This document shows, piece after piece, positions 6,374 through 48,536 of a stretch of 52,672 nucleotides of DNA (position 1 is its first letter; each line of letters opens with the position of its first letter). The stretch is from a virus, in IMG/VR virus record IMGVR_UViG_3300045988_182204; one strand, 5' to 3'. The position numbers were made by a program, and so were the translations under genes. The notes under the pieces were generated by a model, which worked only from the letters and a program-made list of their open reading frames with translations, did no database searches and had not been told where the DNA came from.

Positions 6374-7984
6374 ATGGCGTTGACCAATTTTATCAAGTTG
6401 TCATCTGAGCAAATTCAGACTCTTCAGCGTCAGACTAGCATTCCATACTTCATCTACAATGATGAAATCTCTGGTATCTATGGATCTACACTCCTTGCTG
6501 AGTTGGGCAGTCTCATCAAATACTATGAGATCTATGAAAAGGGAAGCTCTTTTGCGACTGAGGGCAGCAACGGTGACTATACTCCAAGCCAGCTTCGGTA
6601 CAAGAAGATTCATAGCCTGATTGACAAAGAGGCACGATTCCTGTTTGCAAAAACTCCGGACTTCTGGATTGATACTGAGATAGACACTGAGCTGTCTCAG
6701 ACCCAGAAACAGCAGATCAAGCAGGAGCAGACAATTCTACAGAACCTGGTTGATGCAGTCATCAAGGAGAACAAGGTGTCTTCAAAGCTCATTAAAGCTG
6801 CAAAAGACTGCTTCATCGGCAAACGTGTTGCTCTGTTCATCAATTTCAATGAGAATGGCATCAAGATTACATTCAACCCATCTTTGGAGTTTGTTTTTGA
6901 AACAGACCCAGAAGATATTGATGTGATCACTAAACTTGTGTCCTTCTACACTACTGTGGATTCCGCTGACAAAGCCCAGCAGCGTATCTACAAGAAAAAG
7001 TATTACATTGGCGAGGACAAAATGTGTCACATCATAGAGGAGCTCTATGATGGCATGGGCAATGTCGTAGAAACAATCACTCCTGACACAACTACACGGT
7101 TCTCTTACATTCCCGCTTTTGTCATCATCAATGATGGCTTGAGCGGTGATATTCAGGGTGTATCCGAGGTTGATCAGCTGGATGAGTATGAGCAAGCATA
7201 TTCTCGTTTGGCAAATGCTGATCAGGATGCTGAGCGAAAGGGTATGAACCCTGTGCGCTATGCTATTGACATGAACCCAAAGACAACTCAGGGTCTGTCT
7301 ACAGCAGCTGGTGCATTCTGGGATCTAGCATCTGACGATCAGGGTGCTTCAGAGAGGGTTGGTACAGTCGGCGTTTTGTCTGCGCCTATGGAGTACACAA
7401 ATGCTCTGACAACAACCCTTAACCGAATCGAAAACACCATGTACAGTCAGATGGATATGCCCAATACAAGCCCAGAGGCACTTCAGGGTGTTGTATCCAG
7501 TGGCAAAACCCTGAAAGCCATTTATTGGGGTCTGATCGTTCGTTGTGATGAGAAGATGCTAGCTTGGAGACCTGCCTTGGAATCCATGGTGAGAACTATC
7601 ATCGAGGGTGCCAAGCTCTATCCTGAGTTCTGTTCTCGCTACACAAACGGAGAAGCACTTCCTGATATTGAGTACTCTATTCGTGTTGACAATCAGTATC
7701 CACTTCCTGAGGACGAAGCCGAGGAGAAGCAGGTTGATCTGGCTGAGGTGAATGCTCAGACAATGAGCAAGAAAGCCTATATGGTCAAGTGGCGTGGGCT
7801 GACTGATGATGAAGCTCTGGATGAGCTGAAGCAGATCGCCCTCGAACGTCAGCTCCTGGAGGATAGTTTCATGCCCACAGAGCAGATCCAGCCACAGGGT
7901 AAAGAAACTGGTCAGGAGAAAACAGAGTCCTCCACAGATGAGCCAAGCTCTGCTGAGGATGACAATACTCCAGAGGGTGTATAA
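6374..7984 (+). CDS. Portal protein (SPP1 gp6-like)
   Basis: About 536 aa, located between terL and the MuF-like gene, with an acidic C-terminal tail. ATG 6374 has the best spacing from GAAGGTG; the track ORF starts at 6365. Confidence 0.8.
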   Translation: MALTNFIKLSSEQIQTLQRQTSIPYFIYNDEISGIYGSTLLAELGSLIKYYEIYEKGSSFATEGSNGDYTPSQLRYKKIHSLIDKEARFLFAKTPDFWIDTEIDTELSQTQKQQIKQEQTILQNLVDAVIKENKVSSKLIKAAKDCFIGKRVALFINFNENGIKITFNPSLEFVFETDPEDIDVITKLVSFYTTVDSADKAQQRIYKKKYYIGEDKMCHIIEELYDGMGNVVETITPDTTTRFSYIPAFVIINDGLSGDIQGVSEVDQLDEYEQAYSRLANADQDAERKGMNPVRYAIDMNPKTTQGLSTAAGAFWDLASDDQGASERVGTVGVLSAPMEYTNALTTTLNRIENTMYSQMDMPNTSPEALQGVVSSGKTLKAIYWGLIVRCDEKMLAWRPALESMVRTIIEGAKLYPEFCSRYTNGEALPDIEYSIRVDNQYPLPEDEAEEKQVDLAEVNAQTMSKKAYMVKWRGLTDDEALDELKQIALERQLLEDSFMPTEQIQPQGKETGQEKTESSTDEPSSAEDDNTPEGV

Positions 7985-7999
7985 TAAGGAGCCACGACT

Positions 8000-8956
8000 A
8001 TGTCTACCAACTTTGATGCATCAATGAGGAGGGGCATGACTCGTGGCTCCTCTTCTCTTTTGAATCTTAAGAGCGCAGAAGAAGTGCGCTTGAATGTATC
8101 AATCAAGCAACAACGAGAAATTCGAAGTCTATACAAAAAGCTGGCTCAACAAGCACAAGAACAAGCTGAAAAGCTCAAAAGCAAGGATAACATCAGTTCT
8201 GTTCTTAGACAAGAATACCTTAACAAGCTAGCAAATCAGCTCACAGATGCTAGTGATGAAGTTGGCCAAGAGATTGATCGGGTCATTCGGTCGAGCATGA
8301 AGACAACTGCTCAAGGAGTTGTTGATGCCCAAAGAAAGTTTCTGTCTAAGATTGGCATGTTTGGTATTAAGGGTGCGTTCTCTCATGTACCAAATCAGAT
8401 CGTCACAAGCATTGCTACAGGAAACATCTATGATGACAATTGGACTCTCTCTGCAGCAATCTGGGGCATGTCTAAGAAGACCCATAAAGACATTGACAAG
8501 ATCATCGCTGAGGGTGTTGCATTAAACAAAAGTGCTTATGACATAGCCAAGGATCTTGAACGCTATGTCAATCCACTTGCACGAAAAGAATGGGACTGGA
8601 GCAAAGTCTATCCAGGTACAAACAGAGTCATTGATTATAATGCCCAACGATTAGCACGAACACTTGTGTCTCATGCATATCAACAGAGTTTAGAAAGAAC
8701 TTGTGAGAAGAATCCATTTGTCACAGGATATAGGTGGGTGTCTGCAAATTCTGATAGAACTTGTGAGCTCTGTAAAGAGCGGGATGGTCAAATCTATGCA
8801 AAAGGGGATCTGCCACTTGATCATCCAAATGGCCTGTGTACATTCATTGCTGTCATCCCAGACAGCATGACTACAATTTCGGACAGATTAGCTGATTGGG
8901 TAAAAGGAAAATCAGATTCTGCTCTGGATGAATTTGCAAAGTCTTTGAGGAAATAA
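8000..8956 (+). CDS. Head morphogenesis protein (SPP1 gp7 / Mu F-like)
   Basis: C-terminal YRWVSANSDRTCELCKERDGQIY...LPLDHPNGLCTF is the typical Phage_Mu_F motif. Confidence 0.85.
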   Translation: MSTNFDASMRRGMTRGSSSLLNLKSAEEVRLNVSIKQQREIRSLYKKLAQQAQEQAEKLKSKDNISSVLRQEYLNKLANQLTDASDEVGQEIDRVIRSSMKTTAQGVVDAQRKFLSKIGMFGIKGAFSHVPNQIVTSIATGNIYDDNWTLSAAIWGMSKKTHKDIDKIIAEGVALNKSAYDIAKDLERYVNPLARKEWDWSKVYPGTNRVIDYNAQRLARTLVSHAYQQSLERTCEKNPFVTGYRWVSANSDRTCELCKERDGQIYAKGDLPLDHPNGLCTFIAVIPDSMTTISDRLADWVKGKSDSALDEFAKSLRK

Positions 8957-8969
8957 TTTCAAAATACTC

Positions 8970-8998
8970 TTTACATTTCTGTGCAGATGGAGTATAAT
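8970..8998 (+). promoter_or_regulatory. Promoter (CTCTTTACA-17-TATAAT)
   Basis: ATACTCTTTACA...GGAGTATAAT, upstream of the small Cys-rich ORF and scaffold gene. Confidence 0.65.
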
Positions 8999-9026
8999 AA
9001 AATAGAGTCTATTTGGAGGGTGTATT

Positions 9027-9212
9027 ATGAATCAAAGTCGTTGCAAACACGATGACTGCTTCACTTGTCCATATCCTGATTGTATTGCTGGAGTCACTCA
9101 TTTGAAAGGCGAAATGACTCCAAGAGATTATGACGGGAAGAAAGGTGGTTACACTCCAAAGCAAGGCTACAGACAGCCATACTGCTATATGGGACTCAGG
9201 GAAGATCACTGA
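9027..9212 (+). CDS. Small Cys-rich protein (61 aa)
   Basis: CKHDDCFTCPYPDCIAG; SD GGAGGG; lies directly downstream of promoter 8970-8998. Confidence 0.55.
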   Translation: MNQSRCKHDDCFTCPYPDCIAGVTHLKGEMTPRDYDGKKGGYTPKQGYRQPYCYMGLREDH

Positions 9213-9320
9213 TTTCATGCCTTGGCATGTTTTGATGGTTCGGTTCACCAGCTGGGCGAACAGAAATTCAAGCTGGAATTATGCACACCGGATGCACTTT
9301 TCCGGAGATAGGAGATCACA

Positions 9321-10007
9321 ATGCGAAAACTGACAATGTTTGGGAAGCCTATTTTGGTTATGCTGGCTCCTGATGGGGCTGGTGCACCTGCTGGTGGTGA
9401 GGGTTCTGGTGACGCTGGCGCAAACGGCACTGGTGCAAATTCCAGCACTGGCGATGGCTCTGGACAGGAAGGAAACAAAACCTTTACACAGGAAGACATC
9501 AATCGGATCGCTGCCAAAGAGAAAGCTGAGGGTCGTCGCGCTCTTCTCAAAGAGCTGGGCATCGAGGACACTGAGGATTCTCGAAATGCCATCAAGGCTT
9601 ATCTCACTCAGCAGGAGAACCAGAAGTCTGATCTGCAGAAAGCCAACGAACGAGCAAGCAAAGCTGAAAAGGCTCAGGCTGACGCAGAAGCCAATGCTCT
9701 GGCTATCCAGCGAAAGTATGATGCCCTGGCAGCTGGTGCAAAGGCAGACACCATCGATGACCTGATGGCTCTGGCAAGCACCAAGGTCAATGACAAGACG
9801 GACTTCAAAGCTGCTCTTGAGCAGGTGAAGAAAGCATATCCTGTCTTCTTCAATGAGGCTTCTCAGACAAGTACAGTTGGAACAGGGCGATCTACGAACC
9901 CTGCGAGAAACACCAATGGTCACCAGATGTCTATGGGTGAGCGACTGGCCAAGTCTCGTATGGGTAATACCCAAGCAGAAAATCCGTTCTTCAAGAAATC
10001 ATTTTAA
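9321..10007 (+). CDS. Scaffolding protein (DUF4355-like)
   Basis: Gly/Ala-rich N-terminus, then FTQEDINRIAAKEKAEGRRALLKELG and a long coiled coil; lies directly upstream of the capsid genes. Confidence 0.75.
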   Translation: MRKLTMFGKPILVMLAPDGAGAPAGGEGSGDAGANGTGANSSTGDGSGQEGNKTFTQEDINRIAAKEKAEGRRALLKELGIEDTEDSRNAIKAYLTQQENQKSDLQKANERASKAEKAQADAEANALAIQRKYDALAAGAKADTIDDLMALASTKVNDKTDFKAALEQVKKAYPVFFNEASQTSTVGTGRSTNPARNTNGHQMSMGERLAKSRMGNTQAENPFFKKSF

Positions 10008-10020: not shown

Positions 10021-10383
10021 ATGCTGAATCAGTCTGGCATCACAACCAAAACAGCAGTCACTCCAAAGAGTATTCTTTGGGCTCCGGAAAATGCCATTGC
10101 CTTCTCTTGTGTCATCGCAAAGAGCAAGAAACTGCTGGCTGGCACTCCAATCGCTGGTGATCTGACTGCCCGAAACACTGGCTTCACAGCTGCACAGACA
10201 ACTTCTGGTGCTTCCGATGCTGTGGGTCTGCTGCTGCACGAGGTCGATGCTTCTGGAGCAAAGCAGAATGGCACTGTTCTGGTCGCTGGCGTGGTAGACC
10301 TTAACAAGCTGGATTCTACCACTCAGGCACTGATCACCACAGAAGTCAAAGCTGCTCTGAAGCACATCATTTTTGTGAAGTAA
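10021..10383 (+). CDS. Putative head decoration / capsid accessory protein (120 aa)
   Basis: Small Ala/Gly/Thr-rich ORF between scaffold and major capsid genes; the call rests mainly on position. Confidence 0.45.
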   Translation: MLNQSGITTKTAVTPKSILWAPENAIAFSCVIAKSKKLLAGTPIAGDLTARNTGFTAAQTTSGASDAVGLLLHEVDASGAKQNGTVLVAGVVDLNKLDSTTQALITTEVKAALKHIIFVK

Positions 10384-10429: not shown

Positions 10430-11482
10430 ATGACAATTTTTGAACTTGTCACTGCCAGTGAGCTGGTGGCGTATTGGAATACTATGGCCAATCAGCGTGG
10501 TCCATATCTGGGTGAGTCTCTGTTCCCCGCTCGCAAGAAGCGTGGCCTGAATCTGAAGTGGATCAAGGGTTCCAAGGGTCTTCCCGTCGTACTGAATCCC
10601 AGTGCCTATGATGCCAAGGTCAAGATCCGTGATCGCATCGGCTTCAGCACCGTTTCTACCAACATGCCATTCTTCAAAGAGGGTGTCCTGATCGATGAAG
10701 AGACTCGTCAGGAGCTGAACATGGTTCTGGAGACCAACAATCCCGCTTATGTGGATTCGGTCATGAACAATGTTTTCGACGACGAGACTCGACTGCTGGA
10801 TGGTGCTCGTGCCCAGCGTGAGCGCATGCGTATGCAGCTGCTGACCACTGGTTTGATTGCAATCAGTGCCAATGGCCAGGACTACAACTATGACTATGGC
10901 ATCCCCAGCACTCACAAGGTTCAGACTACCACTCCTTGGTCCAACCCTGCTGCCGACATCATGGGTGACATCAGGACCTGGCAGGATCTGATCGAGGACG
11001 AGACTGGTGTTCGTCCTACTCGTGCCATCTGTGATCGTGCCACTTTCAACTACTTCCTGAAGAACGATGCTATCATCAAGAGCAATTTCGTTCTGTCCAA
11101 CGGTCAGGCTGCTCTGAATGAGCCCATGGTTCGTCGCTATCTGCAGGAGAACCTGGGTCTGACTATTGAGGTCAACACCAAGAAGTTCGTTGATGAGGCT
11201 GGCGCCACCAAACCATTCATTCCTGCAAACACCTTTACCATGATCCCTGAGGGTGATCTGGGTAGCACTTGGTTTGGCACCACTCCTGAGGAATCTGACC
11301 TGATGGCTGGTCAGATCGGCAACAGCACTCAGGTTGCTATCACCGACACTGGTGTTGCCGTTGCTACACACGGTCAGTTCGACCCAGTCAATGTTGAGAC
11401 CAAAGTTTCCATGATCTGTCTGCCCAGCTTTGAAGCTGCTGACCAGATTATCATCGCCGATGTTTCTCACTCCGGTGAGTGA
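10430..11482 (+). CDS. Major capsid protein (capsid protein E-like family)
   Basis: 350 aa; N-terminal ELVAYWN...YLGESLFPARKKRGLNLKWIKG pattern; position after the scaffold gene. Confidence 0.85.
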   Translation: MTIFELVTASELVAYWNTMANQRGPYLGESLFPARKKRGLNLKWIKGSKGLPVVLNPSAYDAKVKIRDRIGFSTVSTNMPFFKEGVLIDEETRQELNMVLETNNPAYVDSVMNNVFDDETRLLDGARAQRERMRMQLLTTGLIAISANGQDYNYDYGIPSTHKVQTTTPWSNPAADIMGDIRTWQDLIEDETGVRPTRAICDRATFNYFLKNDAIIKSNFVLSNGQAALNEPMVRRYLQENLGLTIEVNTKKFVDEAGATKPFIPANTFTMIPEGDLGSTWFGTTPEESDLMAGQIGNSTQVAITDTGVAVATHGQFDPVNVETKVSMICLPSFEAADQIIIADVSHSGE

Positions 11483-11821: not shown

Positions 11822-11822
11822 A

Positions 11823-12083
11823 ATGGCTGCAGGCATTGAAGAGCTGAAGATGATCTGTCGTGAAGAAGATGTTCCGTTCTTCAGTGATGCAGAGCTTCAG
11901 TACCATCTAGATCGTGCTGGCGGAAATATCGACCTGGCTGCATACACCTGTCTTTGCATAAAAGCAGAAGACACAACCTTAACCATAAGTGGGTTGACTA
12001 CTGCGGACAGCAGCAAGTATTTTCGTCGCATGGCTTCTAGATATAGACCCACGAACAGTGGGATCCTTATGGGTGATAACTGA
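11823..12083 (+). CDS. Head-tail connector/adaptor protein (86 aa)
   Basis: Size and position directly after the capsid genes; translationally coupled to its neighbours. Confidence 0.5.
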   Translation: MAAGIEELKMICREEDVPFFSDAELQYHLDRAGGNIDLAAYTCLCIKAEDTTLTISGLTTADSSKYFRRMASRYRPTNSGILMGDN

Positions 12084-21272: not shown

Positions 21273-21440
21273 ATGCTATTTGATCGGAAAGACCTGATTC
21301 AGGAGCTAATGTGGGAGTACAACTATGATTATGCCGAGGCAGAGGCCATAGTTGATAGCTACCTTAACAAAGGACAGTATTATACTCTTATTGAAAAGCT
21401 CACAAAGAATCTTGAGAAAATAACAGAATACAAGGAGTGA
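21273..21440 (+). CDS. Hypothetical protein (55 aa)
   Basis: ATG at 21273 follows AAGGAAAGGGA; internal start within track ORF 21225..21440. Confidence 0.45.
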   Translation: MLFDRKDLIQELMWEYNYDYAEAEAIVDSYLNKGQYYTLIEKLTKNLEKITEYKE

Positions 21441-35157: not shown

Positions 35158-35209
35158 AATTTCGTCCTCCTACAGACATCTAGATTTGTTAAGGTTCAAC
35201 CTTGAATAT

Positions 35210-37789: not shown

Positions 37790-38129
37790 CTTTGTCAATC
37801 CTTTCTCTTCCCTTTGGACAATACCAGTTTTCTGGCTTTTCCGTTTTATCAAGACTACAAAGCATCTTGAATACTCGTTTTGGTGCATTCTTCTTGTGAA
37901 ATTTCTTGTAGAATTCACAATTCTTACAACGACATACTTTCTCAAGAGAATTGAGATCAAATGGATCATAACACCAATGGTAAAGGTTCTCTATTTGAGC
38001 AATAGCTGCATCAATTGAGATTTTTTGAGTCCCAAGCTCTGTTGGAAATTCTACCTCTGCATTCGGAGTCTTCTTTCTTCTACTCTTCAGGGTGTCTATT
38101 GCAATAGACAATACTTGTCGTGTAGTCAT
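37770..38129 (-). CDS. Hypothetical Cys-containing protein (119 aa)
   Basis: CRCKNCEFY...WYCPKG; ATG 38129 lies just after the HD gene stop. Confidence 0.5.
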   Translation of the reverse strand: MTTRQVLSIAIDTLKSRRKKTPNAEVEFPTELGTQKISIDAAIAQIENLYHWCYDPFDLNSLEKVCRCKNCEFYKKFHKKNAPKRVFKMLCSLDKTEKPENWYCPKGRERIDKDDSAKE

Positions 38130-38131: not shown

Positions 38132-38689
38132 TCAAACACCCATGCATTGAGAGGCATACATATCAGCAGTATGCGTGTAGAGCACATTAGGATAAGCACA
38201 ACAAGCAGCAGAATATCCTTTCCAATACTTTTCACCCTCAAAGGCACCCATGTGCCAGCGAATGCACATCAGTTCTTCAAAAGTGAGCTCAAGGAACTGC
38301 TGAATCAAAGCTACACTGGCACTGCCATGCCCAGGGAGAATCACATTTTCGGTATGTGTAAAGGTCCCGTCTTCTTGCTTGGTATACAATTTTGTCTTAC
38401 AATAGTCATGCAGCATACCAACAATATATGGGGATTCTTTTCGCTCCCAGTGAAGCCTCAGGCTCTGTGTGTAATCTACAAGTTGACGTGTTACAGCAAA
38501 TGAATGATCAAAAAGACCACCCTCATAATTGCCATGATGAGAAGCTGCTGCTGGAGCAGTGAAGAACCCATCTTTTTCAAGCTGCTGAAGAACCCCTGTA
38601 TTGTATGGACGAGGCATATAACCTGTGAATAGAGCAATGCGTTCTTCTTTGGTTCTGTCAAACACCATATTCTTTTTTGCTGAAGTCAT
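38132..38689 (-). CDS. HD-domain phosphohydrolase
   Basis: HHGNYEGGLFDHSFAV and MLHDYCK (H...HD...D pattern). Confidence 0.7.
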   Translation of the reverse strand: MTSAKKNMVFDRTKEERIALFTGYMPRPYNTGVLQQLEKDGFFTAPAAASHHGNYEGGLFDHSFAVTRQLVDYTQSLRLHWERKESPYIVGMLHDYCKTKLYTKQEDGTFTHTENVILPGHGSASVALIQQFLELTFEELMCIRWHMGAFEGEKYWKGYSAACCAYPNVLYTHTADMYASQCMGV

Positions 38690-38693: not shown

Positions 38694-40628
38694 TCACCTC
38701 TTGAATTGTTTGAGAGTTACACCTTTCCAGCTTGCCTCTCGTGTCTTTGGATTCCTGTATTCAAGAAATCCAAGAGACCTCATGTTTCGAATGAATCCGT
38801 GCTTTTTGTGGCATTCGCGACCACTGCTCACACAGAATTGAGCATATGCTTCATAGAGAGCATCCTTGCCAATATATGCTTCTGGGTCTTTCTTGCACTT
38901 CTTCACAAGAAAGGCATGAATACTATCAGAGTCCTGGCGAAGACCCTCCACCATTCGATTGGAGCGCTCTGTACGAGGAATCGCTTCTACTGGCAGGAGA
39001 CTGAGTAGATACGGAATAATCTCTTCGACACTTTCTTCGCTGCAAAGGTCATTGACATATGCGTCGTTAAGGAATAGCTCGTGATTCATGTACAGAATTC
39101 GCATTCGTTTGTAGAATGCATTTGACTTCTCTTCAAGCTGAAGTGGGAGCTGGTTGAAAGAGAAGATCAGCTTGCAGAAAGGAACAAAGAAGAAAGGCTC
39201 TTTGCCTTTCTTTTCATGCATGATCTGGTCACCACCAGTGATCTTTTTTAAGTTCTCAATACTGCTCAATGGCAATGAACCATTATCACCACAAGAGTTC
39301 AGAAGTGTGTTATATAACTGAGCTGGATAGAATCGAGCACTGAGTTCATGCATACTCAAAGATGAGACATTTTCTCGCCCAACCATATTCTCAATGAATC
39401 GAAGCAAAACGGATTTGCCTGTATTGGACTGACCACAGAGGATCATGAAAGTTTTCAAGCCATAATTCAAGGTCAAACAATATGCCATGTACTTCAGAGC
39501 CATCTTGATATCTTCCTTGTTAAGGCAAGTCTTTTTGAAGAATTGATATAGTCTTGTATTCACAAAAGGAACGTATTCACCTACTTCGTGGGGGATTTGC
39601 AATGTCTGCAAATATTTGCTATCATGAGGAAGAAGCTTCCCTTGCTCAATATCCCAAACACCATTCTTAAAATTGATGAGATTATGATCCTTGTTAAGGT
39701 CTTTTGTCTCTTTTTGAAGTCGTGTATCATCAATGATCAAGCGGAAGCACTCCATGATTCTTGCCTGGGTGATCAAGCTATCCACCATAATCATATCACG
39801 AATTGTATTGCGAACATAACTGCTGGCTTCCTTGTATACACCTTCTTGGTAAAGGTATGCCTCTCCGCCCAAAACGAATATGTCGCCACGGTTTACAAAA
39901 TAATCACATATTGCTCGACTATTAACATTCACAGGGTGACCTTTGGTGTTGTAGATCAGATATGGATTGTCACCCTGCTCTTGGGCTTCATAGTTCTTTG
40001 TATTGCGAATTATCTTTTCGAGCTCTTCTTCTTCCATCGGCTGATCAAAAATGATGGTGTTGATGATATGAGCCATCTTGTCAATTTGATCATCGTTGGC
40101 ACCTCTGTTTTTATAGGCCATAAGGTGTGCAAAGAGAGTTGCGTTTCTGCCATCACCCTCCTTAAGACCGAGAAGAGATTCTCTTCTATTTGCCATTGGA
40201 GTGAATTCAAGAGGAAGATCCTCAATCACTCTGCAATTATTGAACTTTCGGTTTTCTGTACCCCAAGGAAGAATGACATAACCTTTGTTGGCACAGCGAA
40301 AATCACATTTAAGACCGCAAGGCAGTATCATGCCAATGCGCTGAGGAAAATCCTTGTTGGTCTTAAAGTAAAGGTGTAGACCCTTCGGGGTCTTACACAT
40401 TAGAGTTTTGAGGTGCATTTTGCGAACGACTTTGAGGGCTTCTTCTTTGCCCTCATCGATATCTACAATGATGTATCCTGTTCGCACCCACCAACCAATC
40501 TGCCCACCATTTTCAACATGAGCAGCTGCAGCTCTCTCGGGCACGATGGCAGTGTCAATACGCTTCTTTTCCATACAGCGCACATAACTATCCTGCCCGA
40601 TCAAGCTGTTAAACTCAGATAATTTCAT
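38694..40628 (-). CDS. Primase-polymerase / SF3 (D5/P4-type) helicase fusion
   Basis: N-terminal prim-pol-like GWWVRTGYIIVDIDEG; C-terminal P-loop FMILCGQSNTGKSVLL followed by a P4-family C-terminal region; 644 aa. Confidence 0.8.
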   Translation of the reverse strand: MKLSEFNSLIGQDSYVRCMEKKRIDTAIVPERAAAAHVENGGQIGWWVRTGYIIVDIDEGKEEALKVVRKMHLKTLMCKTPKGLHLYFKTNKDFPQRIGMILPCGLKCDFRCANKGYVILPWGTENRKFNNCRVIEDLPLEFTPMANRRESLLGLKEGDGRNATLFAHLMAYKNRGANDDQIDKMAHIINTIIFDQPMEEEELEKIIRNTKNYEAQEQGDNPYLIYNTKGHPVNVNSRAICDYFVNRGDIFVLGGEAYLYQEGVYKEASSYVRNTIRDMIMVDSLITQARIMECFRLIIDDTRLQKETKDLNKDHNLINFKNGVWDIEQGKLLPHDSKYLQTLQIPHEVGEYVPFVNTRLYQFFKKTCLNKEDIKMALKYMAYCLTLNYGLKTFMILCGQSNTGKSVLLRFIENMVGRENVSSLSMHELSARFYPAQLYNTLLNSCGDNGSLPLSSIENLKKITGGDQIMHEKKGKEPFFFVPFCKLIFSFNQLPLQLEEKSNAFYKRMRILYMNHELFLNDAYVNDLCSEESVEEIIPYLLSLLPVEAIPRTERSNRMVEGLRQDSDSIHAFLVKKCKKDPEAYIGKDALYEAYAQFCVSSGRECHKKHGFIRNMRSLGFLEYRNPKTREASWKGVTLKQFKR

Positions 40629-40642: not shown

Positions 40643-40999
40643 CTATTTCATTGTTACTGTGCGATCCTCAATCGTGCGCTGCATGCTTGTACTGCTGTCA
40701 AGCCAACGCTGTACTCGTTCTGTCTTTGCCAGCTTTCTAGCATCAACCTCCTCTTGGTTAAGGTTGAAGATGGCTTTGACATGATGAAGAATAATCTCCA
40801 CATCAGCAACCTCATCAATTGCTTTCTGATGCAGGTTGAGCTGAGCTTCATATTCAGAATCATATCGAGGAAACTTTGCCAACACACATGCTAGCTCATT
40901 AAGCTCTTCAATGGCAACCAAAATCTGATTTTTGTTACCATACACATCACGAGCTTTGGCAAGTGTTGTGACAATGTAATCCGCCTGTTCTTGGGTCAT
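40643..40999 (-). CDS. MazG-like all-alpha NTP pyrophosphohydrolase
   Basis: EExxE / ExxD metal motifs (VAIEELNELACVL and IDEVADVEIIL); 118 aa. Confidence 0.65.
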   Translation of the reverse strand: MTQEQADYIVTTLAKARDVYGNKNQILVAIEELNELACVLAKFPRYDSEYEAQLNLHQKAIDEVADVEIILHHVKAIFNLNQEEVDARKLAKTERVQRWLDSSTSMQRTIEDRTVTMK

Positions 41000-41688: not shown

Positions 41689-42699
41689 TTATTTGTAAAT
41701 GTATTTGACACGAGGACGACCAGTGCCCTCGATTGTCCGAATGTATTTGCAGAATTCACACATACAGTTCTCCAAACACATAACACTGAAGAACCGATCT
41801 TCTTGAGGCAAATCTACAAAGAGTCTACCAGCCCAAAAAGGTGGATGAACTTCGTTGAAGATTTCATCTATGTTGTCCGCGAGCCAGAACAGAGCTTCTT
41901 CATGAGTGAGCCCATTGTAGTCGTCAAACAACTTGTTAAGGCCTTTTTTGCATCCTGGTCCAGCTACAACGAACTCATTCTCACTAAATGGAAACTCTTC
42001 TATATAGGTTAAATCAACAAAGATTTGATATGCCAAAAAATCTGCAAAGCCTTGGATCTCTTTTATGGCTTCAAATGCAACCTTTTGGTCACTGGCACTT
42101 AAGAGTTTTTCAACGGTGTTGTGCTCCTTGAGCCATGGACCGATATGGAATACTCGTAAAGGTATATCTTGCTCCACACAGTCACTGAAATGATCAATGT
42201 CTGCATATCTCCAGGCCTGTTTTGTGCCACCCTGATTGTATGCCGAAGACCACCACTTGCGGTCAGAATCTTCTGTAACTAACTGCTTGTAGATTGGTCG
42301 AACCTGTTCTTTCATCTGCGAGGAGTAAAGGCTCTTTGCTGGCCATGGTCCACCAAGATCCTTCATTGTATCCCAGTTGTTCCATGCTCGGAAGTAGAAG
42401 CTATTGACAATCTTATCCTCTATAGATAGACATGGATTGGTACTGATATTTTTGATGAGATATTGGCTCTGACGATCATGCTCACGACGAATGTTGCAGA
42501 ACTTGTACTGTAACAGGATCGGGTTGTTTGTCCATGGTGCTTTTTGCTTCAAGAAGTCTTTGCGAATATGAATCTTGTAGCGCTCTGTTACAAAGTCATA
42601 GAAGTGTTTGACTGCAACGGCATTCAATTTGGGTTTGGCTTCCAGAATCTTTTGCTGATTCACACCGCAGTATTTTACATCTGCTCTTTTATTTTTCAT
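41689..42699 (-). CDS. Putative DNA base hypermodification protein (aGPT-pyrophosphorylase-like family)
   Basis: PWTNNPILLQYKFCNIRREHDRQSQYL and VVAGPGCKKGLNKLF resemble the PWT.DpIL..yrFcNvyRe.DR.T and GPGa.RGL motifs I recall for this family. This needs HMM confirmation. Confidence 0.45.
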   Translation of the reverse strand: MKNKRADVKYCGVNQQKILEAKPKLNAVAVKHFYDFVTERYKIHIRKDFLKQKAPWTNNPILLQYKFCNIRREHDRQSQYLIKNISTNPCLSIEDKIVNSFYFRAWNNWDTMKDLGGPWPAKSLYSSQMKEQVRPIYKQLVTEDSDRKWWSSAYNQGGTKQAWRYADIDHFSDCVEQDIPLRVFHIGPWLKEHNTVEKLLSASDQKVAFEAIKEIQGFADFLAYQIFVDLTYIEEFPFSENEFVVAGPGCKKGLNKLFDDYNGLTHEEALFWLADNIDEIFNEVHPPFWAGRLFVDLPQEDRFFSVMCLENCMCEFCKYIRTIEGTGRPRVKYIYK

Positions 42700-42901
42700 T
42701 GGCTTTTCTCCTACAATACTGCTCTAAATGGGCCAATATGGATAATCCCATGAAACATGCCATAGGAATAAGATCTTCACCACCAATTGCTTTATATCCT
42801 CGCTGAAGCAGTGCAGCCTCAGCAGCCACCATAGATATATATGGGGTTATAATGAACAACAGAGTGAACAATATTCCAAACAGCTTCTCAAGTACCTTCA
42901 T
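42689..42901 (-). CDS. Small membrane protein (70 aa, two TM helices)
   Basis: FGILFTLLFIITPYISMVAA and LIPMACFMGLSILA. Confidence 0.55.
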   Translation of the reverse strand: MKVLEKLFGILFTLLFIITPYISMVAAEAALLQRGYKAIGGEDLIPMACFMGLSILAHLEQYCRRKANEK

Positions 42902-42902: not shown

Positions 42903-42931
42903 ATTATACCTCCAAATAGGGCTATTGTAAA
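42903..42931 (-). promoter_or_regulatory. Promoter-like motif (CTCTTTACA-17-TATAAT), function doubtful
   Basis: The motif fits the family, but the -10 ends 1 nt before ATG 42901 and overlaps its SD. Confidence 0.3.
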
Positions 42932-43512
42932 GAGATTTTTTCGTCCTTGTAGCAGTACTTGATGACATCTTTTCTGGCTGTCATCAGCTTTTCCGTTCCT
43001 CTTGGCTTCTTACCATACCCATGAACGGCTCCGCCACGACCGATAATCAGCTTGCGATATCGTGTAGTCTTTGTATTGAGGTTGTACCTGATCTTCACAG
43101 TCATCAGCCCATTGACATCAACACACCAAGTTGTTTTAATAGAGTTATAGTCCACACTATCATAATCTGCTATCTCATGTTCTAGTTGTGCCCAAGCAAC
43201 CATCTGTTTGGCATTTGGCTGACCCTCACTTTTGGAAGACTTAGAGAAATCAACGATCACCTGTCTCTTTGGGCTGGTGTCTCCTGTGGAGCGTCCTTTC
43301 TCATCACGAGTAGTTTTCTCCTCAGACCTTCTGAGGGACTCCACAGGAGCTGCTGCTTCGCTGGCAGGGACACGCTTCGTACTCAGAGATTCCGGAGCCA
43401 CACCCAGGATATTAGCAGCAATGTTCTTGGCCTGAGCTGATGTTTCACACTTCACGGATCCAAAGACATTTCCGTCCTTGATCATATTATAATAGTATAC
43501 TCGAATTCTCAT
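42922..43512 (-). CDS. Hypothetical protein (196 aa)
   Basis: Long ORF with SD; no motif recognised. Confidence 0.55.
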   Translation of the reverse strand: MRIRVYYYNMIKDGNVFGSVKCETSAQAKNIAANILGVAPESLSTKRVPASEAAAPVESLRRSEEKTTRDEKGRSTGDTSPKRQVIVDFSKSSKSEGQPNAKQMVAWAQLEHEIADYDSVDYNSIKTTWCVDVNGLMTVKIRYNLNTKTTRYRKLIIGRGGAVHGYGKKPRGTEKLMTARKDVIKYCYKDEKISLQ

Positions 43513-43513: not shown

Positions 43514-43741
43514 TCAAGACCTCCACAATTTTCTGAGTCTGTAATTTATGTGAACGATATCCATCACATCAGAGTGTAGCTCGGAATCAATACTCTTCAA
43601 ACGAACTTTCATGTGCCAACCCACTGTGCTCAGTGGCATATTGAATCGCTCAGCTGTCTCCCTATATGTTGCTAAACTCTTGTTGATGATATATGATGCT
43701 TCATCTAGCACCTGCTGATCAGTGTATCTTCTTTTCTTCAT
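43514..43741 (-). CDS. SpoIIID-like HTH transcriptional regulator (75 aa)
   Basis: ...ETAERFNMPLSTVGWHMKVRLKSIDSELHSDVMDIVHINY parallels B. subtilis SpoIIID (...FGVSKSTVHKDLTERLPEINPDLANEVKEIL...) as I remember it. Confidence 0.5.
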   Translation of the reverse strand: MKKRRYTDQQVLDEASYIINKSLATYRETAERFNMPLSTVGWHMKVRLKSIDSELHSDVMDIVHINYRLRKLWRS

Positions 43742-43751
43742 CTTAAACACC

Positions 43752-47645: not shown

Positions 47646-47658
47646 AATAGAATACCTC

Positions 47659-47682
47659 CATGTACATTTACATGTACATTTA
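47659..47682. repeat. Perfect 12-bp tandem duplication (CATGTACATTTA x2) in a 37-nt intergenic gap
   Basis: On the mRNA it forms the hairpin UGUACAU-GUAA-AUGUACA, immediately 5' of the SD of gene 47268..47645. Confidence 0.6.
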
Positions 47683-47910
47683 TCAGTTATACTTGCGAAT
47701 AAGAATATTCAGTGCTTCGACAGTAGCAGCATCAACAGGCTCAATATCAGGCTCACGATCATAATTGTAAACAAATTTGTTGCCACGCTTGATAGTAAGT
47801 TTGGAGATCTTGCCACCATTGAGACCAAACTCTTCACTGGGCTCCTCATACGCCTTGATGGAGTATTCGAAAGTGGTGTTGTTGATTTTGATAGTGCTAT
47901 GTTCAATCAT
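47683..47910 (-). CDS. Hypothetical protein (75 aa)
   Basis: ATG follows ACGGAGG; first gene after promoter 47954-47982. Confidence 0.55.
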   Translation of the reverse strand: MIEHSTIKINNTTFEYSIKAYEEPSEEFGLNGGKISKLTIKRGNKFVYNYDREPDIEPVDAATVEALNILIRKYN

Positions 47911-47953
47911 TTTAGTTGCCTCCGTTTGTTTTCTTGCTTCTTATTGTGATTAC

Positions 47954-47982
47954 ATTGTACTCCTTCTGCAAGAAATTGTAAA
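47954..47982 (-). promoter_or_regulatory. Early promoter (CTCTTTACA-17-TACAAT) with upstream A/T palindromes
   Basis: Minus-strand AAAACCTCTTTACA...GGAGTACAAT. The upstream sequence AAAATATTTT / TGAAAATTTTCA lies at 47994-48014. Confidence 0.65.
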
Positions 47983-48011
47983 GAGGTTTTTGTAAAATAT
48001 TTTGAAAATTT

Positions 48012-48536
48012 TCAAAATTTTTGCAGCTCCTGTCTCAGCTTCTTGATCTTGCGCCTGACATTGCACGCTGGAACGCCAATCATGCGAGATATAGCGCTGG
48101 CAGAATATCCTTTGATATGGAGCTTGGCAACTTTGAAAAAGACTGTATCACTTTTACATATATAGTGTATCTGGGTGTAGATGTCAGATATGGCATAGTC
48201 GTCCTGTGGGTCAGGGATGGTGCATTCGATAGGAATTGGAACTGGTTCTTCGTTGCAGATTGTGCTGTTAAGGCTGACCGTCGTTTGGACTTGTCGCTGT
48301 ACCTTGCGCCACTCCATACTGATTACATTAGACATGCATAAAAATGCAAATGAAGAGAACTTTCCTCTCTTGGGTTCATAGAAATGTGCTGCACGGCATA
48401 ATCCAATAGCACAGAGATCGTAATAGTCGTCAGACAGATTGTATTTGTTAAGGTATGAATAGATGAGATTATGGTTATTGGTGACAAGATCTCGCTCTTC
48501 ATCTGTGAGAGTGAATGGTTTCGCTGGTGAGTGCAT
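48012..48536 (-). CDS. Sigma-70-family RNA polymerase sigma factor (regions 2 and 4)
   Basis: Region 2-like DLCAIGLCRAAHFYEPKRGKFSSFAFLCMSNVISMEWRK; region 4 HTH IKGYSASAISRMIGVPACNVRRKIKKLRQEL. It is the first gene of the leftward arm. Confidence 0.8.
   Translation of the reverse strand: MHSPAKPFTLTDEERDLVTNNHNLIYSYLNKYNLSDDYYDLCAIGLCRAAHFYEPKRGKFSSFAFLCMSNVISMEWRKVQRQVQTTVSLNSTICNEEPVPIPIECTIPDPQDDYAISDIYTQIHYICKSDTVFFKVAKLHIKGYSASAISRMIGVPACNVRRKIKKLRQELQKF

What the first reader, a model, noticed from the sequence alone, without database searches (positions are those of the whole stretch)
7417..48453. Strongly over-represented, strictly polar heptamer CCTTAAC (33 sense versus 3 antisense) whose orientation flips at the iteron region and at the convergent terminator
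Counts from a manual scan:
- CCTTAAC occurs on the plus strand at 7417, 8218, 10299, 11977, 14564, 15456, 15585, 16988, 18271, 19628, 20250 and 21362. All lie in plus-strand genes.
- Its complement GTTAAGG occurs on the plus strand at 25142, 25709, 26485, 27018, 28063, 28778, 29864, 30026, 31529, 32389 and 35188.
- Further GTTAAGG copies are at 36541, 36814, 37336, 39066, 39519, 39693, 40757, 41935, 48267 and 48447. All 21 GTTAAGG copies lie in the minus-strand arm.
- That gives 33 copies co-oriented with transcription. If replication starts at 48.5-49.6 kb, they also lie on the strand with leading-strand sequence.
- Only 3 copies are in the opposite sense (13921, 14149, 51169). My rough base-composition estimate predicts about 3 per strand for a random 7-mer in 52.6 kb.

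Codon context:
- 30 of the 32 coding copies sit in the phase NNC-CTT-AAC (x-Leu-Asn) and two in NCC-TTA-ACN. One copy (35188) is in a 5' UTR.
- Many other Leu-Asn pairs in the same genes use TTG-AAT, CTG-AAT or CTC-AAT.
- The base before CTTAAC is C in 33 of the 34 sense CTTAAC I found. The constraint therefore appears to act at the nucleotide level.
- The flanks suggest R-CCTTAAC-V, and T never follows the motif.

Distribution: the motif is absent from 42.0-48.2 kb (small early ORFs), from 21.4-24.9 kb (late cargo), and from 49.6 kb across the junction to 7.4 kb.

Inference, candidate roles:
- A Chi-like signal for the host AddAB/RecBCD-type nuclease.
- A priming or helicase-loading site spaced at roughly Okazaki-fragment length (about 0.9-1.2 kb in the dense regions).
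- A target or landmark for site-specific nicking or for the predicted DNA modification.
- An RNA-level signal.

The motif-free blocks may be recently acquired modules.
Basis: seen in the sequence. Interest (0 to 1): 0.82.

Follow-up and report, generated by a model that had tools for sequence, protein, structure and literature searches.

The report
Oriented 7-bp motif array in phage
A gut phage genome carries about fifty same-direction copies of the word CCTT(A/T)AC, written into its core genes by recent, selected substitutions; the signal is real and lineage-specific, but what reads it is unknown, and the best candidate is a phage-encoded SpoIIID-like DNA-binding protein.

Summary
CCTTAAC occurs 33 times in the sense direction and 3 times antisense. 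About 1-5 are expected under Markov, synonymous and dinucleotide-preserving codon shuffles. It is the most over-represented 7-mer in the window.

- **Full signal:** it is CCTTWAC (51 sense, 5 antisense), because CCTTTAC is the only enriched one-letter variant.
- **Level of action:** enrichment is the same in every reading phase, so the signal is at nucleotide level. The NNC-CTT-AAC phase bias only reflects rare TTA and the in-frame stop.
- **Origin:** it is lineage-specific. Three related clades have it; relatives with primase at most 77% identical keep the same Leu-Asn/Leu-Tyr residues with other codons.
- **How sites arose:** by synonymous and some non-synonymous changes. They are conserved above same-phase controls and absent from the hypervariable blocks.
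- **Gene association:** all three motif-bearing clades, and no others, carry a sigma gene and a cassette (SpoIIID-family HTH, a 196-aa gene, a small ORF) upstream of the 5-hmdU DNA kinase gene.

Best guess (about 0.3): oriented duplex binding sites for that monomeric HTH protein. Chi, priming, promoter and RNA readings found no positive support. Transcription and replication polarity remain confounded.

The parts
4489..4495 (+). CCTTTAC, sense, in TerL
7417..7423 (+). CCTTAAC, sense, in portal gene
8218..8224 (+). CCTTAAC, sense
9481..9487 (+). CCTTTAC, sense (phase 1)
10299..10305 (+). CCTTAAC, sense
11232..11238 (+). CCTTTAC, sense, in major head gene (phase 1)
11977..11983 (+). CCTTAAC, sense (phase NCC-TTA-ACN)
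14564..14570 (+). CCTTAAC, sense, tape measure gene (phase NCC-TTA-ACN)
15456..15462 (+). CCTTAAC, sense, tape measure gene
15585..15591 (+). CCTTAAC, sense, tape measure gene
16988..16994 (+). CCTTAAC, sense
18271..18277 (+). CCTTAAC, sense
19107..19113 (+). CCTTTAC, sense (phase 0)
19628..19634 (+). CCTTAAC, sense
20250..20256 (+). CCTTAAC, sense
21362..21368 (+). CCTTAAC, sense
22436..22442 (+). CCTTTAC, sense
25142..25148 (-). CCTTAAC, sense, SNF2-like helicase gene
25709..25715 (-). CCTTAAC, sense
26288..26294 (-). CCTTTAC, sense
26485..26491 (-). CCTTAAC, sense (197 bp from 26288)
27018..27024 (-). CCTTAAC, sense
27200..27206 (-). CCTTTAC, sense (182 bp from 27018)
28063..28069 (-). CCTTAAC, sense, thymidylate-synthase-like gene
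28606..28612 (-). CCTTTAC, sense
28778..28784 (-). CCTTAAC, sense (172 bp from 28606); shared with the 87% clade
29864..29870 (-). CCTTAAC, sense, radical SAM gene
30026..30032 (-). CCTTAAC, sense (162 bp from 29864)
31529..31535 (-). CCTTAAC, sense, glycosyltransferase gene
32390..32396 (-). CCTTAAC, sense (reader wrote 32389)
33620..33626 (-). CCTTTAC, sense, exonuclease gene
35188..35194 (-). CCTTAAC, sense, intergenic, about 35 nt downstream of a promoter -35 box
36193..36199 (-). CCTTTAC, sense, DNA polymerase gene
36541..36547 (-). CCTTAAC, sense, DNA polymerase gene
36814..36820 (-). CCTTAAC, sense, DNA polymerase gene (created with an amino-acid change)
37336..37342 (-). CCTTAAC, sense, DNA polymerase gene
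37980..37986 (-). CCTTTAC, sense
38358..38364 (-). CCTTTAC, sense (phase 1)
39066..39072 (-). CCTTAAC, sense, primase-helicase gene
39519..39525 (-). CCTTAAC, sense, primase-helicase gene
39693..39699 (-). CCTTAAC, sense, primase-helicase gene; shared by all three motif-bearing clades
39849..39855 (-). CCTTTAC, sense; TAC-CAA-TAC (Y-Q-Y) in all outgroups became TAC-CTT-TAC
40368..40374 (-). CCTTTAC, sense, primase-helicase gene
40757..40763 (-). CCTTAAC, sense (created with amino-acid changes)
41935..41941 (-). CCTTAAC, sense, 5-hmdU DNA kinase gene
42156..42162 (-). CCTTTAC, sense (phase 0), 5-hmdU DNA kinase gene; shared by all three clades
42325..42331 (-). CCTTTAC, sense, 5-hmdU DNA kinase gene
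48267..48273 (-). CCTTAAC, sense, sigma-factor gene
48447..48453 (-). CCTTAAC, sense, sigma-factor gene (180 bp from 48267)
49860..49866 (+). CCTTTAC, sense (phase 0) in TerS; absent from most close relatives, probably background
4965..4971 (+). CCTTTAC that is the -35 box of a promoter-like element, probably not part of the array
43514..43750 (-). SpoIIID-family HTH gene, candidate reader; found only in motif-bearing clades
42922..43512 (-). 196-aa gene of unknown fold in the same clade-specific cassette
42689..42901 (-). 70-aa gene, third member of the cassette, directly upstream of the 5-hmdU DNA kinase gene
48012..48536 (-). sigma-70-family gene (region 2 hit; weak SigK/SigH-like), found only in motif-bearing clades
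24943..24967 (.). bidirectional terminator hairpin where the two arms and the motif orientation converge
48650..49250 (.). AAAAATCGGCG iteron field between the divergent arms; unrelated in sequence to the motif

Best explanation
CCTTWAC is a cis-acting signal in duplex DNA. It has been written about fifty times into the core genes of this phage lineage. It is most likely read by a factor the lineage acquired at the same time. The best candidate is the 75-aa SpoIIID-family helix-turn-helix protein at 43514-43750. This family binds as a monomer to one asymmetric site of about 10 bp.

Proposed working: the protein occupies a dispersed, roughly evenly spaced array over the replication and virion modules of the hmU-modified genome. 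Each bound monomer is asymmetric, so only the orientation that RNA polymerase and the replisome can pass is tolerated. Both machines travel the same way in each arm. This would produce the flip between the arms.

What the bound protein then does is not known. It could organise or mark DNA, direct the neighbouring 196-aa protein or the hypermodification enzymes, or act with the phage sigma factor.

Shown: the motif, its selection, its recent origin and its co-occurrence with the cassette.
For: - **Real and nucleotide-level:** 33 (51 with the T variant) sense copies against 1-5 expected. Enrichment is equal in all reading phases.
- **Selected:**
  - The 7-mer is kept in 93% of comparisons against 57% for same-phase control 7-mers at 90-95% local identity, and 82% against 36% at 80-90%.
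  - Some sites were created by amino-acid changes in conserved enzymes.
  - Leu-Asn dipeptides number 93 against 65 expected.
- **Recent and still accumulating:**
  - The motif is absent from relatives with primase at most 77% identical.
  - Sites are shared and private in a nested pattern among three clades.
- **Co-occurrence:**
  - All three motif-bearing clades carry the SpoIIID-like gene, the 196-aa gene and a small ORF directly upstream of the 5-hmdU DNA kinase gene, plus a sigma gene. These are the window clade, the 92% clade L101/L103 and the 87% clade L003/L033.
  - No motif-free clade carries them.
- **Family assignment:** the protein passes the Pfam SpoIIID threshold, 34.5 bits against a cut-off of 27. 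SpoIIID binds with high affinity as a monomer to the asymmetric site TAGGACAAGC (PMC11180830).
- **Recognition helix:** STVGWH[MI]K.RL is invariant across clades whose proteins are otherwise only 45-50% identical and which share the same motif.
- **Recognition pattern:** all positions are strict except one, which is A or T. A/T equivalence is typical of duplex minor-groove reading (general knowledge of protein-DNA recognition).
- **Spacing in the minus arm:** no interval is under 150 bp (6.3 expected, P = 2e-4), and intervals of 156-197 bp are in excess (7 against 1.8).
Against: - The co-occurrence reflects a single evolutionary event. It holds equally for the sigma gene, the 196-aa gene and the small ORF.
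- No binding data exist.
- Similarity to the B. subtilis SpoIIID box is only 4 of 7 at best offset, which is no better than chance.
- The protein misses the NCBIfam equivalog cut-off (29 bits against 111.5), so it is not an orthologue.
- Transcription factors are not known to have oriented intragenic arrays.
- The roadblock argument predicts depletion of reverse copies. Depletion is seen with plain synonymous shuffles (1 against about 12) but not with dinucleotide-preserving ones (3 against 6.2, P = 0.14).
- A host factor cannot be excluded, because the host is unknown.
Confidence: 0.3

Rival explanations
1. The motif is a landmark for a site- and strand-specific chemical event on the DNA. This could be a particular thymidine hypermodification or a nick, installed by the cassette next to the 5-hmdU DNA kinase gene, possibly with the SpoIIID-like protein as specificity subunit.
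For: - The phage has a full 5-hmdU pathway: a TS-like gene, dCMP deaminase, MazG-like and HD genes, the 5-HMUDK domain PF18723, a radical SAM-SPASM gene and a glycosyltransferase.
- Hypermodification is known to be sequence-specific, with motifs still unknown (PMC5889632, PMC8989533).
- The clade-specific cassette abuts the kinase gene.
- The motif contains TT or TTT.
- Arrays of nick-site consensus sequences exist in phages tf, T5 and phiKMV (PMC3517423).
Against: - The 196-aa protein has no recognisable enzyme fold (best Foldseek E-value 0.19).
- No nickase was identified.
- In tf, T5 and phiKMV all sites lie on one physical strand even with convergent gene arms. Here the strand flips.
- The radical SAM and glycosyltransferase genes also occur in the motif-free relative L011.
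- About 100 modified T would be a tiny share of the genome's T.
Confidence: 0.15
2. The motif is a Chi-like sequence that tames a host AddAB/RecBCD-type helicase-nuclease. It is oriented for enzymes entering at broken forks or genome ends.
For: - It is polar and over-represented, with the sense strand equal to the presumed leading strand if the origin lies at the iterons.
- Each added copy would help incrementally.
- Copies are rather evenly spaced.
- Clade restriction could reflect a host switch.
Against: - There is no enrichment in 33 candidate-host or MAG loci totalling 470 kb: CCTTAAC 7 observed against 12 expected, complement 20 against 13. It is virtually absent from Subdoligranulum/Gemmiger DNA. 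Host assignment is weak, however.
- Related phages on other hosts show no comparable polar word.
- The T positions are very likely hmU derivatives in phage DNA, which a host protein tuned to T need not recognise.
- Known Chi sequences are G-rich and read as single strands, where A/T equivalence is unexpected (general knowledge).
- About 6-7 kb on each side of the divergent region lack copies.
Confidence: 0.1
3. The motif marks preferred start sites for lagging-strand priming, or helicase loading, by the phage PriCT/D5-type primase-helicase. The sites lie on the lagging-strand template of both arms.
For: - The motif strand is the lagging-strand template if forks leave the iteron region.
- Spacing of 0.6-1.1 kb is more even than random (CV 0.62 and 0.68, P = 0.03 and 0.02).
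- Reverse copies would be neutral, as observed.
Against: - The primase is shared at 64-77% identity by clades without the motif.
- Only 10 residues are diagnostic of motif-bearing clades. Just one lies in the AEP-like N-terminal domain and one in the PriCT region.
- A 7-nt requirement could not have preceded the sites.
- Two origin-proximal stretches of about 6-7 kb have none.
- Pairs 156-197 bp apart make little sense as Okazaki starts.
Confidence: 0.1
4. The signal acts in the mRNA as CCUUWAC. It would be a binding or processing site for a phage or host RNA-binding factor.
For: - All selected copies are in the transcribed sense, including the one 5'-UTR copy.
- RNA carries ordinary U whatever the DNA modification.
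- Motif positions are predicted to be somewhat more unpaired than control positions (0.57 against 0.43; composition not controlled).
- Reverse copies are neutral.
Against: - A purine/pyrimidine (A or U) equivalence at one strict position is unusual for single-strand reading.
- No flanking structure or sequence is conserved.
- No Rfam family matched other than two tRNAs.
- No RNA-binding protein was identified among the clade-specific genes.
- The spacing exclusion below 150 bp has no obvious RNA rationale.
Confidence: 0.1
5. The motif copies are single-element intragenic promoters or pause sites for RNA polymerase carrying the clade-specific phage sigma factor, in the manner of the T4 late TATAAATA box.
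For: - The sigma gene is restricted to the motif-bearing clades.
- Copies are in the sense orientation.
- The motif is absent from the block of small early ORFs, which has sigma-A-type promoters.
Against: - No second promoter element lies at any spacing; flank information is below 0.3 bit.
- Positions within genes are uniform (relative position 0.02-0.96) rather than ahead of gene starts.
- The phage has its own well-conserved TTTACA-N17-TAYAAT promoters.
- The sigma proteins of the three clades are only 31-41% identical, yet the motif is the same.
Confidence: 0.07
6. The motif is a translocase guide of the KOPS/SRS kind, steering host FtsK or SpoIIIE along the phage genome. One use could be carrying the phage genome into the forespore of a sporulating host.
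For: - It is a duplex-type, strictly polar, evenly dispersed word whose orientation converges at one point.
- The complement GTWAAGG shares AAGG with the B. subtilis SRS GAGAAGGG (from memory).
- The phage carries sporulation-type regulators, a sigma factor and a SpoIIID-like protein.
Against: - There is no enrichment in candidate-host DNA.
- hmU replaces T in the motif.
- No robust depletion of reverse copies is seen.
- The idea rests on resemblance only.
Confidence: 0.04
7. The pattern is chance, or a codon-pair or translational preference (Leu-CTT followed by Asn/Tyr NAC).
For: 30 of 32 coding CCTTAAC copies share one reading phase.
Against: - Shuffles give 3-5 copies.
- The phase ratio equals the neutral opportunity ratio (about 12:1) computed from codon usage.
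- Out-of-phase copies are enriched as much: 8 against about 1.
- CTT before AAC or TAC is preceded by C in 41 of 43 cases, against 31 of 284 for other CTT codons.
- Relatives with the same proteins use other codons.
Confidence: 0.01

Closest known systems
Chi sites (RecBCD/AddAB) and their enrichment in some phage genomes
   Same: A short, polar, over-represented word, co-oriented with genes and the leading strand. Many dispersed copies each add benefit.
   Different: The sequence is not G-rich. It was not found enriched in candidate-host DNA. It contains T, which this phage modifies. Skew is near 100% rather than about 75%. It is restricted to one phage lineage that gained its own DNA-binding genes.
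KOPS / SRS and other architecture-imparting sequences of bacterial chromosomes
   Same: A duplex-read, strongly skewed 7-8-mer whose orientation switches at two points of a circular map.
   Different: It sits in a 52-kb phage, at a density of 1 per 0.6-1.1 kb. It arose within a few per cent of sequence divergence. No translocase link and no host skew have been shown.
Nick-site consensus arrays of phages tf (TACT/RTGMC), T5 and phiKMV (PMC3517423)
   Same: About a dozen to tens of copies of a strict 7-9-bp asymmetric word in a lytic phage. One-letter variants are rare. Co-evolution of the sites with a phage-encoded reader has been suspected.
   Different: In those phages all sites lie on one physical strand even where gene arms converge. 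Here the strand follows the arm. No nicks or nickase are known here.
SpoIIID boxes of Bacillus subtilis (TAGGACAAGC; monomeric HTH)
   Same: An asymmetric duplex site of similar length, read by a single small HTH protein of the same Pfam family as the clade-specific phage gene.
   Different: The sequence is different and the recognition helix is different. SpoIIID boxes sit at promoters and are not oriented genome-wide arrays.
Single-orientation CAGCAG (EcoP15I) sites of phage T7
   Same: Dozens of copies of an asymmetric word, all in one orientation relative to transcription.
   Different: The T7 bias is a by-product of one-directional coding and gives immunity to a type III enzyme. Here both orientations coexist in the two arms, so head-to-head pairs exist. 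The word is also actively enriched, not merely oriented.
SPO1 TF1 sites on hmU DNA
   Same: A phage with hmU-type DNA encodes a small DNA-binding protein with preferred sites on its own modified genome (from memory).
   Different: TF1 is an HU-type dimer, and its sites cluster near early promoters. Here the sites avoid the early region and are oriented.

Membership tests
Chi (AddAB/RecBCD regulatory sequence) | Over-represented and skewed in the host chromosome | tested here: inconclusive
   No enrichment in 470 kb of candidate-host or MAG loci. The host is not securely identified.
Chi (AddAB/RecBCD regulatory sequence) | Attenuates the host nuclease when met from the 3' side | not testable with these tools
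   Needs AddAB assays on T- and hmU-containing substrates.
KOPS/SRS translocase guides | Strong skew, with reverse copies counter-selected | tested here: inconclusive
   Sense to antisense is 51:5. Reverse copies number 1 against about 12 expected (plain shuffle) but 3 against 6.2 (dinucleotide-preserving shuffle, P = 0.14).
KOPS/SRS translocase guides | Bound by the FtsK/SpoIIIE gamma domain of the host | not testable with these tools
   Host unknown.
Phage nick-site arrays (T5, tf, phiKMV) | All sites on one physical DNA strand | tested here: not met
   Orientation flips between the arms, unlike tf.
Phage nick-site arrays (T5, tf, phiKMV) | Ligatable nicks at the sites in virion DNA | not testable with these tools
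   Needs virion DNA.
Primase recognition sites | Specificity resides in the primase, so a change of sites should be mirrored in its template-recognition domain | tested here: not met
   Only 1 diagnostic substitution in the AEP-like domain and 1 in the PriCT region between motif-bearing and motif-free clades.
Two-element sigma-dependent promoters | A second conserved element at fixed spacing, and position ahead of genes | tested here: not met
   Flank information is below 0.3 bit from -45 to +45. Positions within genes are uniform.
SpoIIID-family protein (candidate reader) | Matches the family model | tested here: met
   Pfam PF12116, 34.5 bits against a cut-off of 27. NCBIfam equivalog TIGR02844 gives only 29 bits against 111.5. 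It is a family member, not an orthologue.
SpoIIID-family binding site | Sequence-specific binding of the protein to the motif | not testable with these tools
   Only indirect support: co-occurrence in 3 of 3 motif-bearing clades and none of the motif-free clades, and an invariant recognition helix.
Host codon-pair bias | Reproduced by dicodon- or dinucleotide-preserving shuffles and shared by relatives | tested here: not met
Structured RNA family | Conserved structure or an Rfam match | tested here: not met
   Only two tRNAs in Rfam. No flank conservation.

The most novel reading that the evidence does not exclude
This phage lineage may have evolved its own genome-wide, orientation-coded address system within a short evolutionary time. 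It would have done so after acquiring a small sporulation-type HTH protein, together with a sigma factor and two unknown genes. About fifty co-oriented copies of a 7-bp site would have been written into essential genes, even at the cost of amino-acid changes. The protein would read them on hmU-modified DNA. This would be a phage-encoded counterpart of chromosomal polar sequences such as KOPS or Chi, with sites and reader co-evolving in view.
Probability: 0.3. Interest if true: 0.8.

Novelty: new variant of a known kind. Interest (0 to 1): 0.72.

Why it matters
Polar, over-represented words are known mainly from bacterial chromosomes, where their origin lies far in the past. Here the birth of such a system can be watched.
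- Sister clades have 0, about 10 and about 50 copies.
- The substitutions that made each site are visible.
- A short list of candidate reader genes is available.

It would also show that selection on a DNA word can override protein sequence in polymerase and primase genes. In practice, the motif is a ready-made handle for experiments on thymidine-hypermodified phages of gut Firmicutes, none of which has been cultured from this group.

Tried and rejected
1. **Reversed-polarity domains.** Pooling sites over relatives suggested that TerS-endolysin-fibre (49.6-2.2 kb) and 12.8-14.2 kb carry the motif antisense. This would have uncoupled polarity from transcription. Per-gene shuffles show those antisense copies are at chance level, and they are mostly not conserved. 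The idea is rejected. These blocks are simply not under selection.
2. **Depletion of reverse copies in core regions.** It is significant with plain synonymous shuffles but not with dinucleotide-preserving ones. It is not claimed.
3. **Promoter reading.** No second element was found.
4. **RNA structure.** There is only a small accessibility difference, and composition was not controlled.
5. **Host test.** The endolysin profile against GTDB genomes gave Subdoligranulum/Gemmiger and unnamed MAGs. None is enriched, but their GC of 58-66% against 44% makes the host call doubtful.
6. **The 196-aa cassette protein.** The AlphaFold model (pLDDT 78) has no PDB fold match and no PDB sequence match.
7. 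**SpoIIID-like, sigma or 196-aa homologues outside this phage group.** None was found in GenBank phages or IMG/VR, so the association could not be tested in an independent lineage.
8. **Alternative polar words in motif-free relatives.** Nothing comparable was found.
9. **Literature.** There was no relevant hit for the motif itself and none in a search for strand-specific over-represented heptamers in phage genomes.
10. **Nearest GenBank phage.** The only nucleotide match is a tRNA.

Full report
**What the window is.** The window is a complete or nearly complete genome of a tailed phage with GC 44%.
- A plus-strand arm carries virion and lysis genes: TerS, dUTPase-like, endolysin, TerL, portal, major head, tape measure and tail genes. 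It runs from about 48.7 kb through the window junction to 24.9 kb.
- A minus-strand arm carries early and replication genes and runs from 48.5 kb down to 24.95 kb.
- The arms diverge at a field of AAAAATCGGCG iterons (48.65-49.25 kb). They converge at a bidirectional terminator (24943-24967).
- The phage encodes a pathway for 5-hydroxymethyl-dU DNA and its post-replicative hypermodification. The genes are a thymidylate-synthase-like gene, dCMP deaminase, MazG-like and HD phosphohydrolases, a 5-hmdU DNA kinase domain, a radical SAM-SPASM enzyme and a glycosyltransferase. The pathway is described in PMC5889632 and PMC8989533.
- No cultured phage is close. Protein matches point to gut Firmicutes phages. 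An identical protein is deposited as DAE68501.1, from a Caudoviricetes sp. MAG.

CCTTAAC is on the plus strand at the twelve positions given. Its complement is at 24 positions, 21 of them in the minus arm. One coordinate should be 32390.
- Relative to the arms this is 33 sense and 3 antisense copies.
- Expected sense counts are 2.8 from base composition and 1.05 from a third-order Markov model (P = 2e-37). This is the strongest 7-mer in the window.
- Of the 33 sense copies, 32 lie in coding sequence, and this is the count the codon shuffles address.
- Per-gene synonymous codon shuffles give 3.2 (maximum 8). Shuffles that also keep every codon-junction dinucleotide give 4.65 (maximum 11).
- The antisense count is at the neutral expectation.

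**The motif is CCTTWAC.** Of the 21 one-letter variants, all have at most 3 sense copies except CCTTTAC. That variant has 18 sense and 2 antisense copies against 1.6 expected.
- One CCTTTAC copy (4965) is the -35 box of a promoter and should be set aside.
- Flanks add little: a purine before the motif, not T after it, then often A. There is nothing else between -45 and +45.
- CTT followed by AAC or TAC is preceded by C in 41 of 43 cases. Other CTT codons are preceded by C in 31 of 284.

**The signal is at nucleotide level, not codon level.** The striking phase bias (30 of 32 as NNC-CTT-AAC) is what codon usage predicts.
- The frame CCT-TAA-C contains a stop.
- NCC-TTA-ACN needs the rare TTA codon (59 uses).
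- From the codon table, the neutral expectations are about 1.7 and 0.14, a ratio of 12:1. The observed ratio is 30:2.
- For CCTTTAC the three phases hold 11, 3 and 3 copies against about 1.2, 0.7 and 0.1.
- Enrichment is therefore about 10-25-fold in every phase. This excludes a translational or codon-pair cause.

**The motif is recent and lineage-specific.** Thirty-seven related contigs were fetched with the primase-helicase.
- Contigs with 98-100% identical primase have 11-21 CCTTAAC copies and none reversed per 10-22 kb.
- A clade at 87% (L003/L033) has 6-8 copies and none reversed.
- Every relative at 77% or less (GC 32-49%) is at background and has no comparable polar word of its own.
- A third clade at 92% (L101/L103) has 6-7 CCTTAAC and 7 CCTTTAC in 20 kb, with one reversed.
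- At orthologous codons the outgroups mostly keep x-Leu-Asn or x-Leu-Tyr but spell them CTG-AAT, TTG-AAC and so on.
- Several sites needed amino-acid changes. One example is Tyr-Gln-Tyr, conserved in every outgroup primase, which became Tyr-Leu-Tyr (TAC-CTT-TAC).
- Leu-Asn is the most over-represented dipeptide tested, at 93 against 65 expected.
- Sites are shared in a nested way. Some are in all three clades, some in two, and some are private to each. Accumulation has therefore continued independently.

**The motif is under purifying selection.** Among close relatives the 7-mer was compared with control 7-mers in the same codon phase.
- At 90-95% local identity it is intact in 93% of comparisons, against 57% for controls.
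- At 80-90% the figures are 82% against 36%.
- Below 80% they are 29% against 12%.

**Where the motif is absent.** In 4.4-22.5 kb and 24.9-42.7 kb, 28 of 62 suitable x-Leu-Asn positions carry the motif. In the remaining blocks, 0 of 13 do (P about 4e-4). Those blocks are TerS to the gene before TerL, 22.5-24.9 kb, and the small early ORFs at 42.7-48.0 kb.
- These blocks are the hypervariable, mosaic parts of the genome. They are often missing or only 60-90% identical even in otherwise 95-99% identical relatives.

**Spacing.** Spacing is somewhat more even than random in both arms. In the minus arm no interval is shorter than 150 bp, where 6.3 would be expected (P = 2e-4). Seven intervals fall at 156-197 bp against 1.8 expected. 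The two copies in the sigma gene are 180 bp apart.

**What co-occurs with the motif.** Five genes are present in the motif-bearing clades and in no motif-free relative within the regions fetched.
- One is a sigma-70-family gene at the head of the minus arm. It has a region 2 match and weak SigK/SigH resemblance.
- One is a 125-aa gene between the polymerase and primase genes (37770-38147). This one was checked only in the window clade and the 87% clade.
- Three form a contiguous cassette immediately upstream of the 5-hmdU DNA kinase gene: a 75-aa SpoIIID-family HTH protein (Pfam 34.5 bits against a cut-off of 27), a 196-aa protein and a 70-86-aa protein.
- SpoIIID binds with high affinity as a monomer to a single asymmetric 10-bp site (PMC11180830). 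This is the kind of protein that could read an asymmetric 7-bp duplex word.
- Its recognition helix (STVGWH[MI]K.RL) is invariant across the three clades, although the proteins are otherwise only 45-50% identical.
- The one degenerate position of the motif is A or T. That equivalence is natural for minor-groove reading of duplex DNA and unnatural for single-strand or RNA reading (general knowledge).
- The 196-aa protein models as two domains joined by a disordered linker and matches no solved fold.

**Interpretation.** I think the most likely reading, at roughly 0.3, is that CCTTWAC is the duplex binding site of a lineage-specific factor, most plausibly the SpoIIID-like protein.
- The array was built under selection after that factor was acquired.
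- Orientation follows the arms because an asymmetric, tightly bound monomer is passed more easily from one side by RNA polymerase and the replisome. Both travel in the same direction within each arm.
- The steps from 'co-occurs' to 'binds', and from 'binds' to 'why oriented', are inference.
- The co-occurrence is one evolutionary event and applies equally to the sigma gene and the unknown genes.
- A close variant (0.15) is that the site is a landmark for a strand-specific modification or nick made by the cassette next to the kinase gene.

- *Chi-like signal.*
  - Candidate-host and MAG loci, found through the endolysin, show no enrichment in 470 kb, but the host call is weak.
  - Relatives on other hosts have no analogous word.
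  - The motif contains T, which this phage very likely replaces.
- *Priming.* The primase is shared with motif-free clades. Only ten residues are diagnostic of the motif-bearing clades, with one in the AEP-like domain. Two stretches of about 6-7 kb next to the putative origin have no sites.
- *Nick arrays as in tf, T5 or phiKMV.* These lie on one physical strand even where gene arms converge, unlike here.
- *RNA-level signal.* It is not excluded, but nothing supports it beyond orientation.
- *Intragenic promoters for the phage sigma.* These are unlikely. There is no second element, and positions within genes are uniform.

**What could not be resolved.** Transcription and replication polarity are fully confounded in this genome. 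GC skew follows the gene arms as well.
- An apparent reversal of motif orientation in the TerS-endolysin block and around 13-14 kb, seen when sites were pooled over relatives, dissolved on proper testing. Those reversed copies are at chance level and not conserved.
- Depletion of reversed copies in core regions depends on the null model.
- The host is unknown. No independent phage lineage with a homologous cassette was found in which to test the association.

**Verdict.** This is a genuine, strongly selected, recently evolved polar DNA word, CCTTWAC.
- It is not a codon artefact and not a member of the known nick-site or promoter families.
- It resembles chromosomal polar sequences in form, but its reader and function are unknown.
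- The candidate reader and the graded series of relatives make the question directly testable.

Noticed in passing
window 5687, 8969, 10387, 20027, 24238 (+ strand); 29278, 35233, 35647, 42926, 44922, 47977 (- strand); also 4965: A family of highly similar promoter-like elements, A-rich tract + CCT-CTTTACA - N17 - TAYAAT. They lie in intergenic gaps of both arms. Their -35 region resembles but is not the CCTTTAC variant of the motif.
   Followed up: partly
window 48650-49250: About 14 copies of AAAAATCGGCG in both orientations, with longer 41-nt and 102-nt repeats, between the divergent arms. They are conserved in all three motif-bearing clades (top 8-mers CCGATTTT and CGCCGATT). They could be an origin, a pac/TerS recognition field or operators. 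The core resembles the -10 box GCCGATAA of sigma-D/sigma-28 promoters (from memory). ORFs called at 48717-49019 and 49205-49366 are probably spurious.
   Followed up: partly
window 27808-31561, 38132-42699, 50338-50841: A full gene set for 5-hmdU DNA and thymidine hypermodification: a TS-like gene, a kinase-like gene, radical SAM-SPASM, glycosyltransferase, HD, MazG-like, dCMP deaminase, 5-HMUDK and a dUTPase/dCTP-deaminase-like gene. The combination of radical SAM-SPASM with a glycosyltransferase suggests a modification not yet described.
   Followed up: partly
window 41689-42699: The 5-hmdU DNA kinase gene is only about 71% identical between genomes whose neighbouring genes are 95-99% identical. 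This suggests allelic replacement of the modification kinase within the clade.
   Followed up: no
window 43514-43750 and 48012-48536: The phage carries sporulation-type regulators, a SpoIIID-family protein and a sigma factor with weak SigK/SigH resemblance. This suggests a spore-forming Firmicutes host and possible interference with sporulation.
   Followed up: partly
window 49605-50351 versus 3584-4954: The P22 gp3-type small terminase gene lies 6.6 kb upstream of the large terminase gene. A dUTPase-like gene, the endolysin, a variable 729-aa fibre/lipase/collagen-like gene and an XkdX-like gene sit between them, which is an unusual order.
   Followed up: no
window 25142-42325 (minus arm) and 48267/48447: Motif copies avoid spacings below 150 bp and often come as pairs 156-197 bp apart: 26288/26485, 27018/27200, 28606/28778, 29864/30026, 39519/39693/39849, 42156/42325 and 48267/48447.
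   Followed up: partly
window 34138-34214 and 34510-34586 (- strand): Two phage tRNA genes, tRNA-Pro(TGG) and tRNA-Thr(TGT). The tRNA-Pro is 88-89% identical to tRNAs of cluster-C-type mycobacteriophages, which was the only nucleotide match to GenBank phages.
   Followed up: no
window 45225-45515 (- strand): A Lar-like restriction-alleviation gene lies among the small early ORFs. In relatives this block also holds YopX, AAA_33 kinase and pyrimidine-dimer glycosylase (Pyr_excise) genes.
   Followed up: no
window 9279-9974, 10367-11836, 13174-14298, 20242-20859, 21918-22757 (- strand); 31583-32902 (+ strand): Long open reading frames run antisense to well-supported genes, up to 489 aa opposite the major head gene. 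They are probably a by-product of the purine-rich coding strand, and naive longest-ORF gene calling picks them.
   Followed up: partly
L005 (IMGVR_UViG_3300035507_000073): In one motif-free relative, AGCGGTT (which contains the B. subtilis Chi pentamer AGCGG) is among the top skewed 7-mers, with 8 observed, 1.2 expected and 2 reversed. Significance is weak.
   Followed up: no
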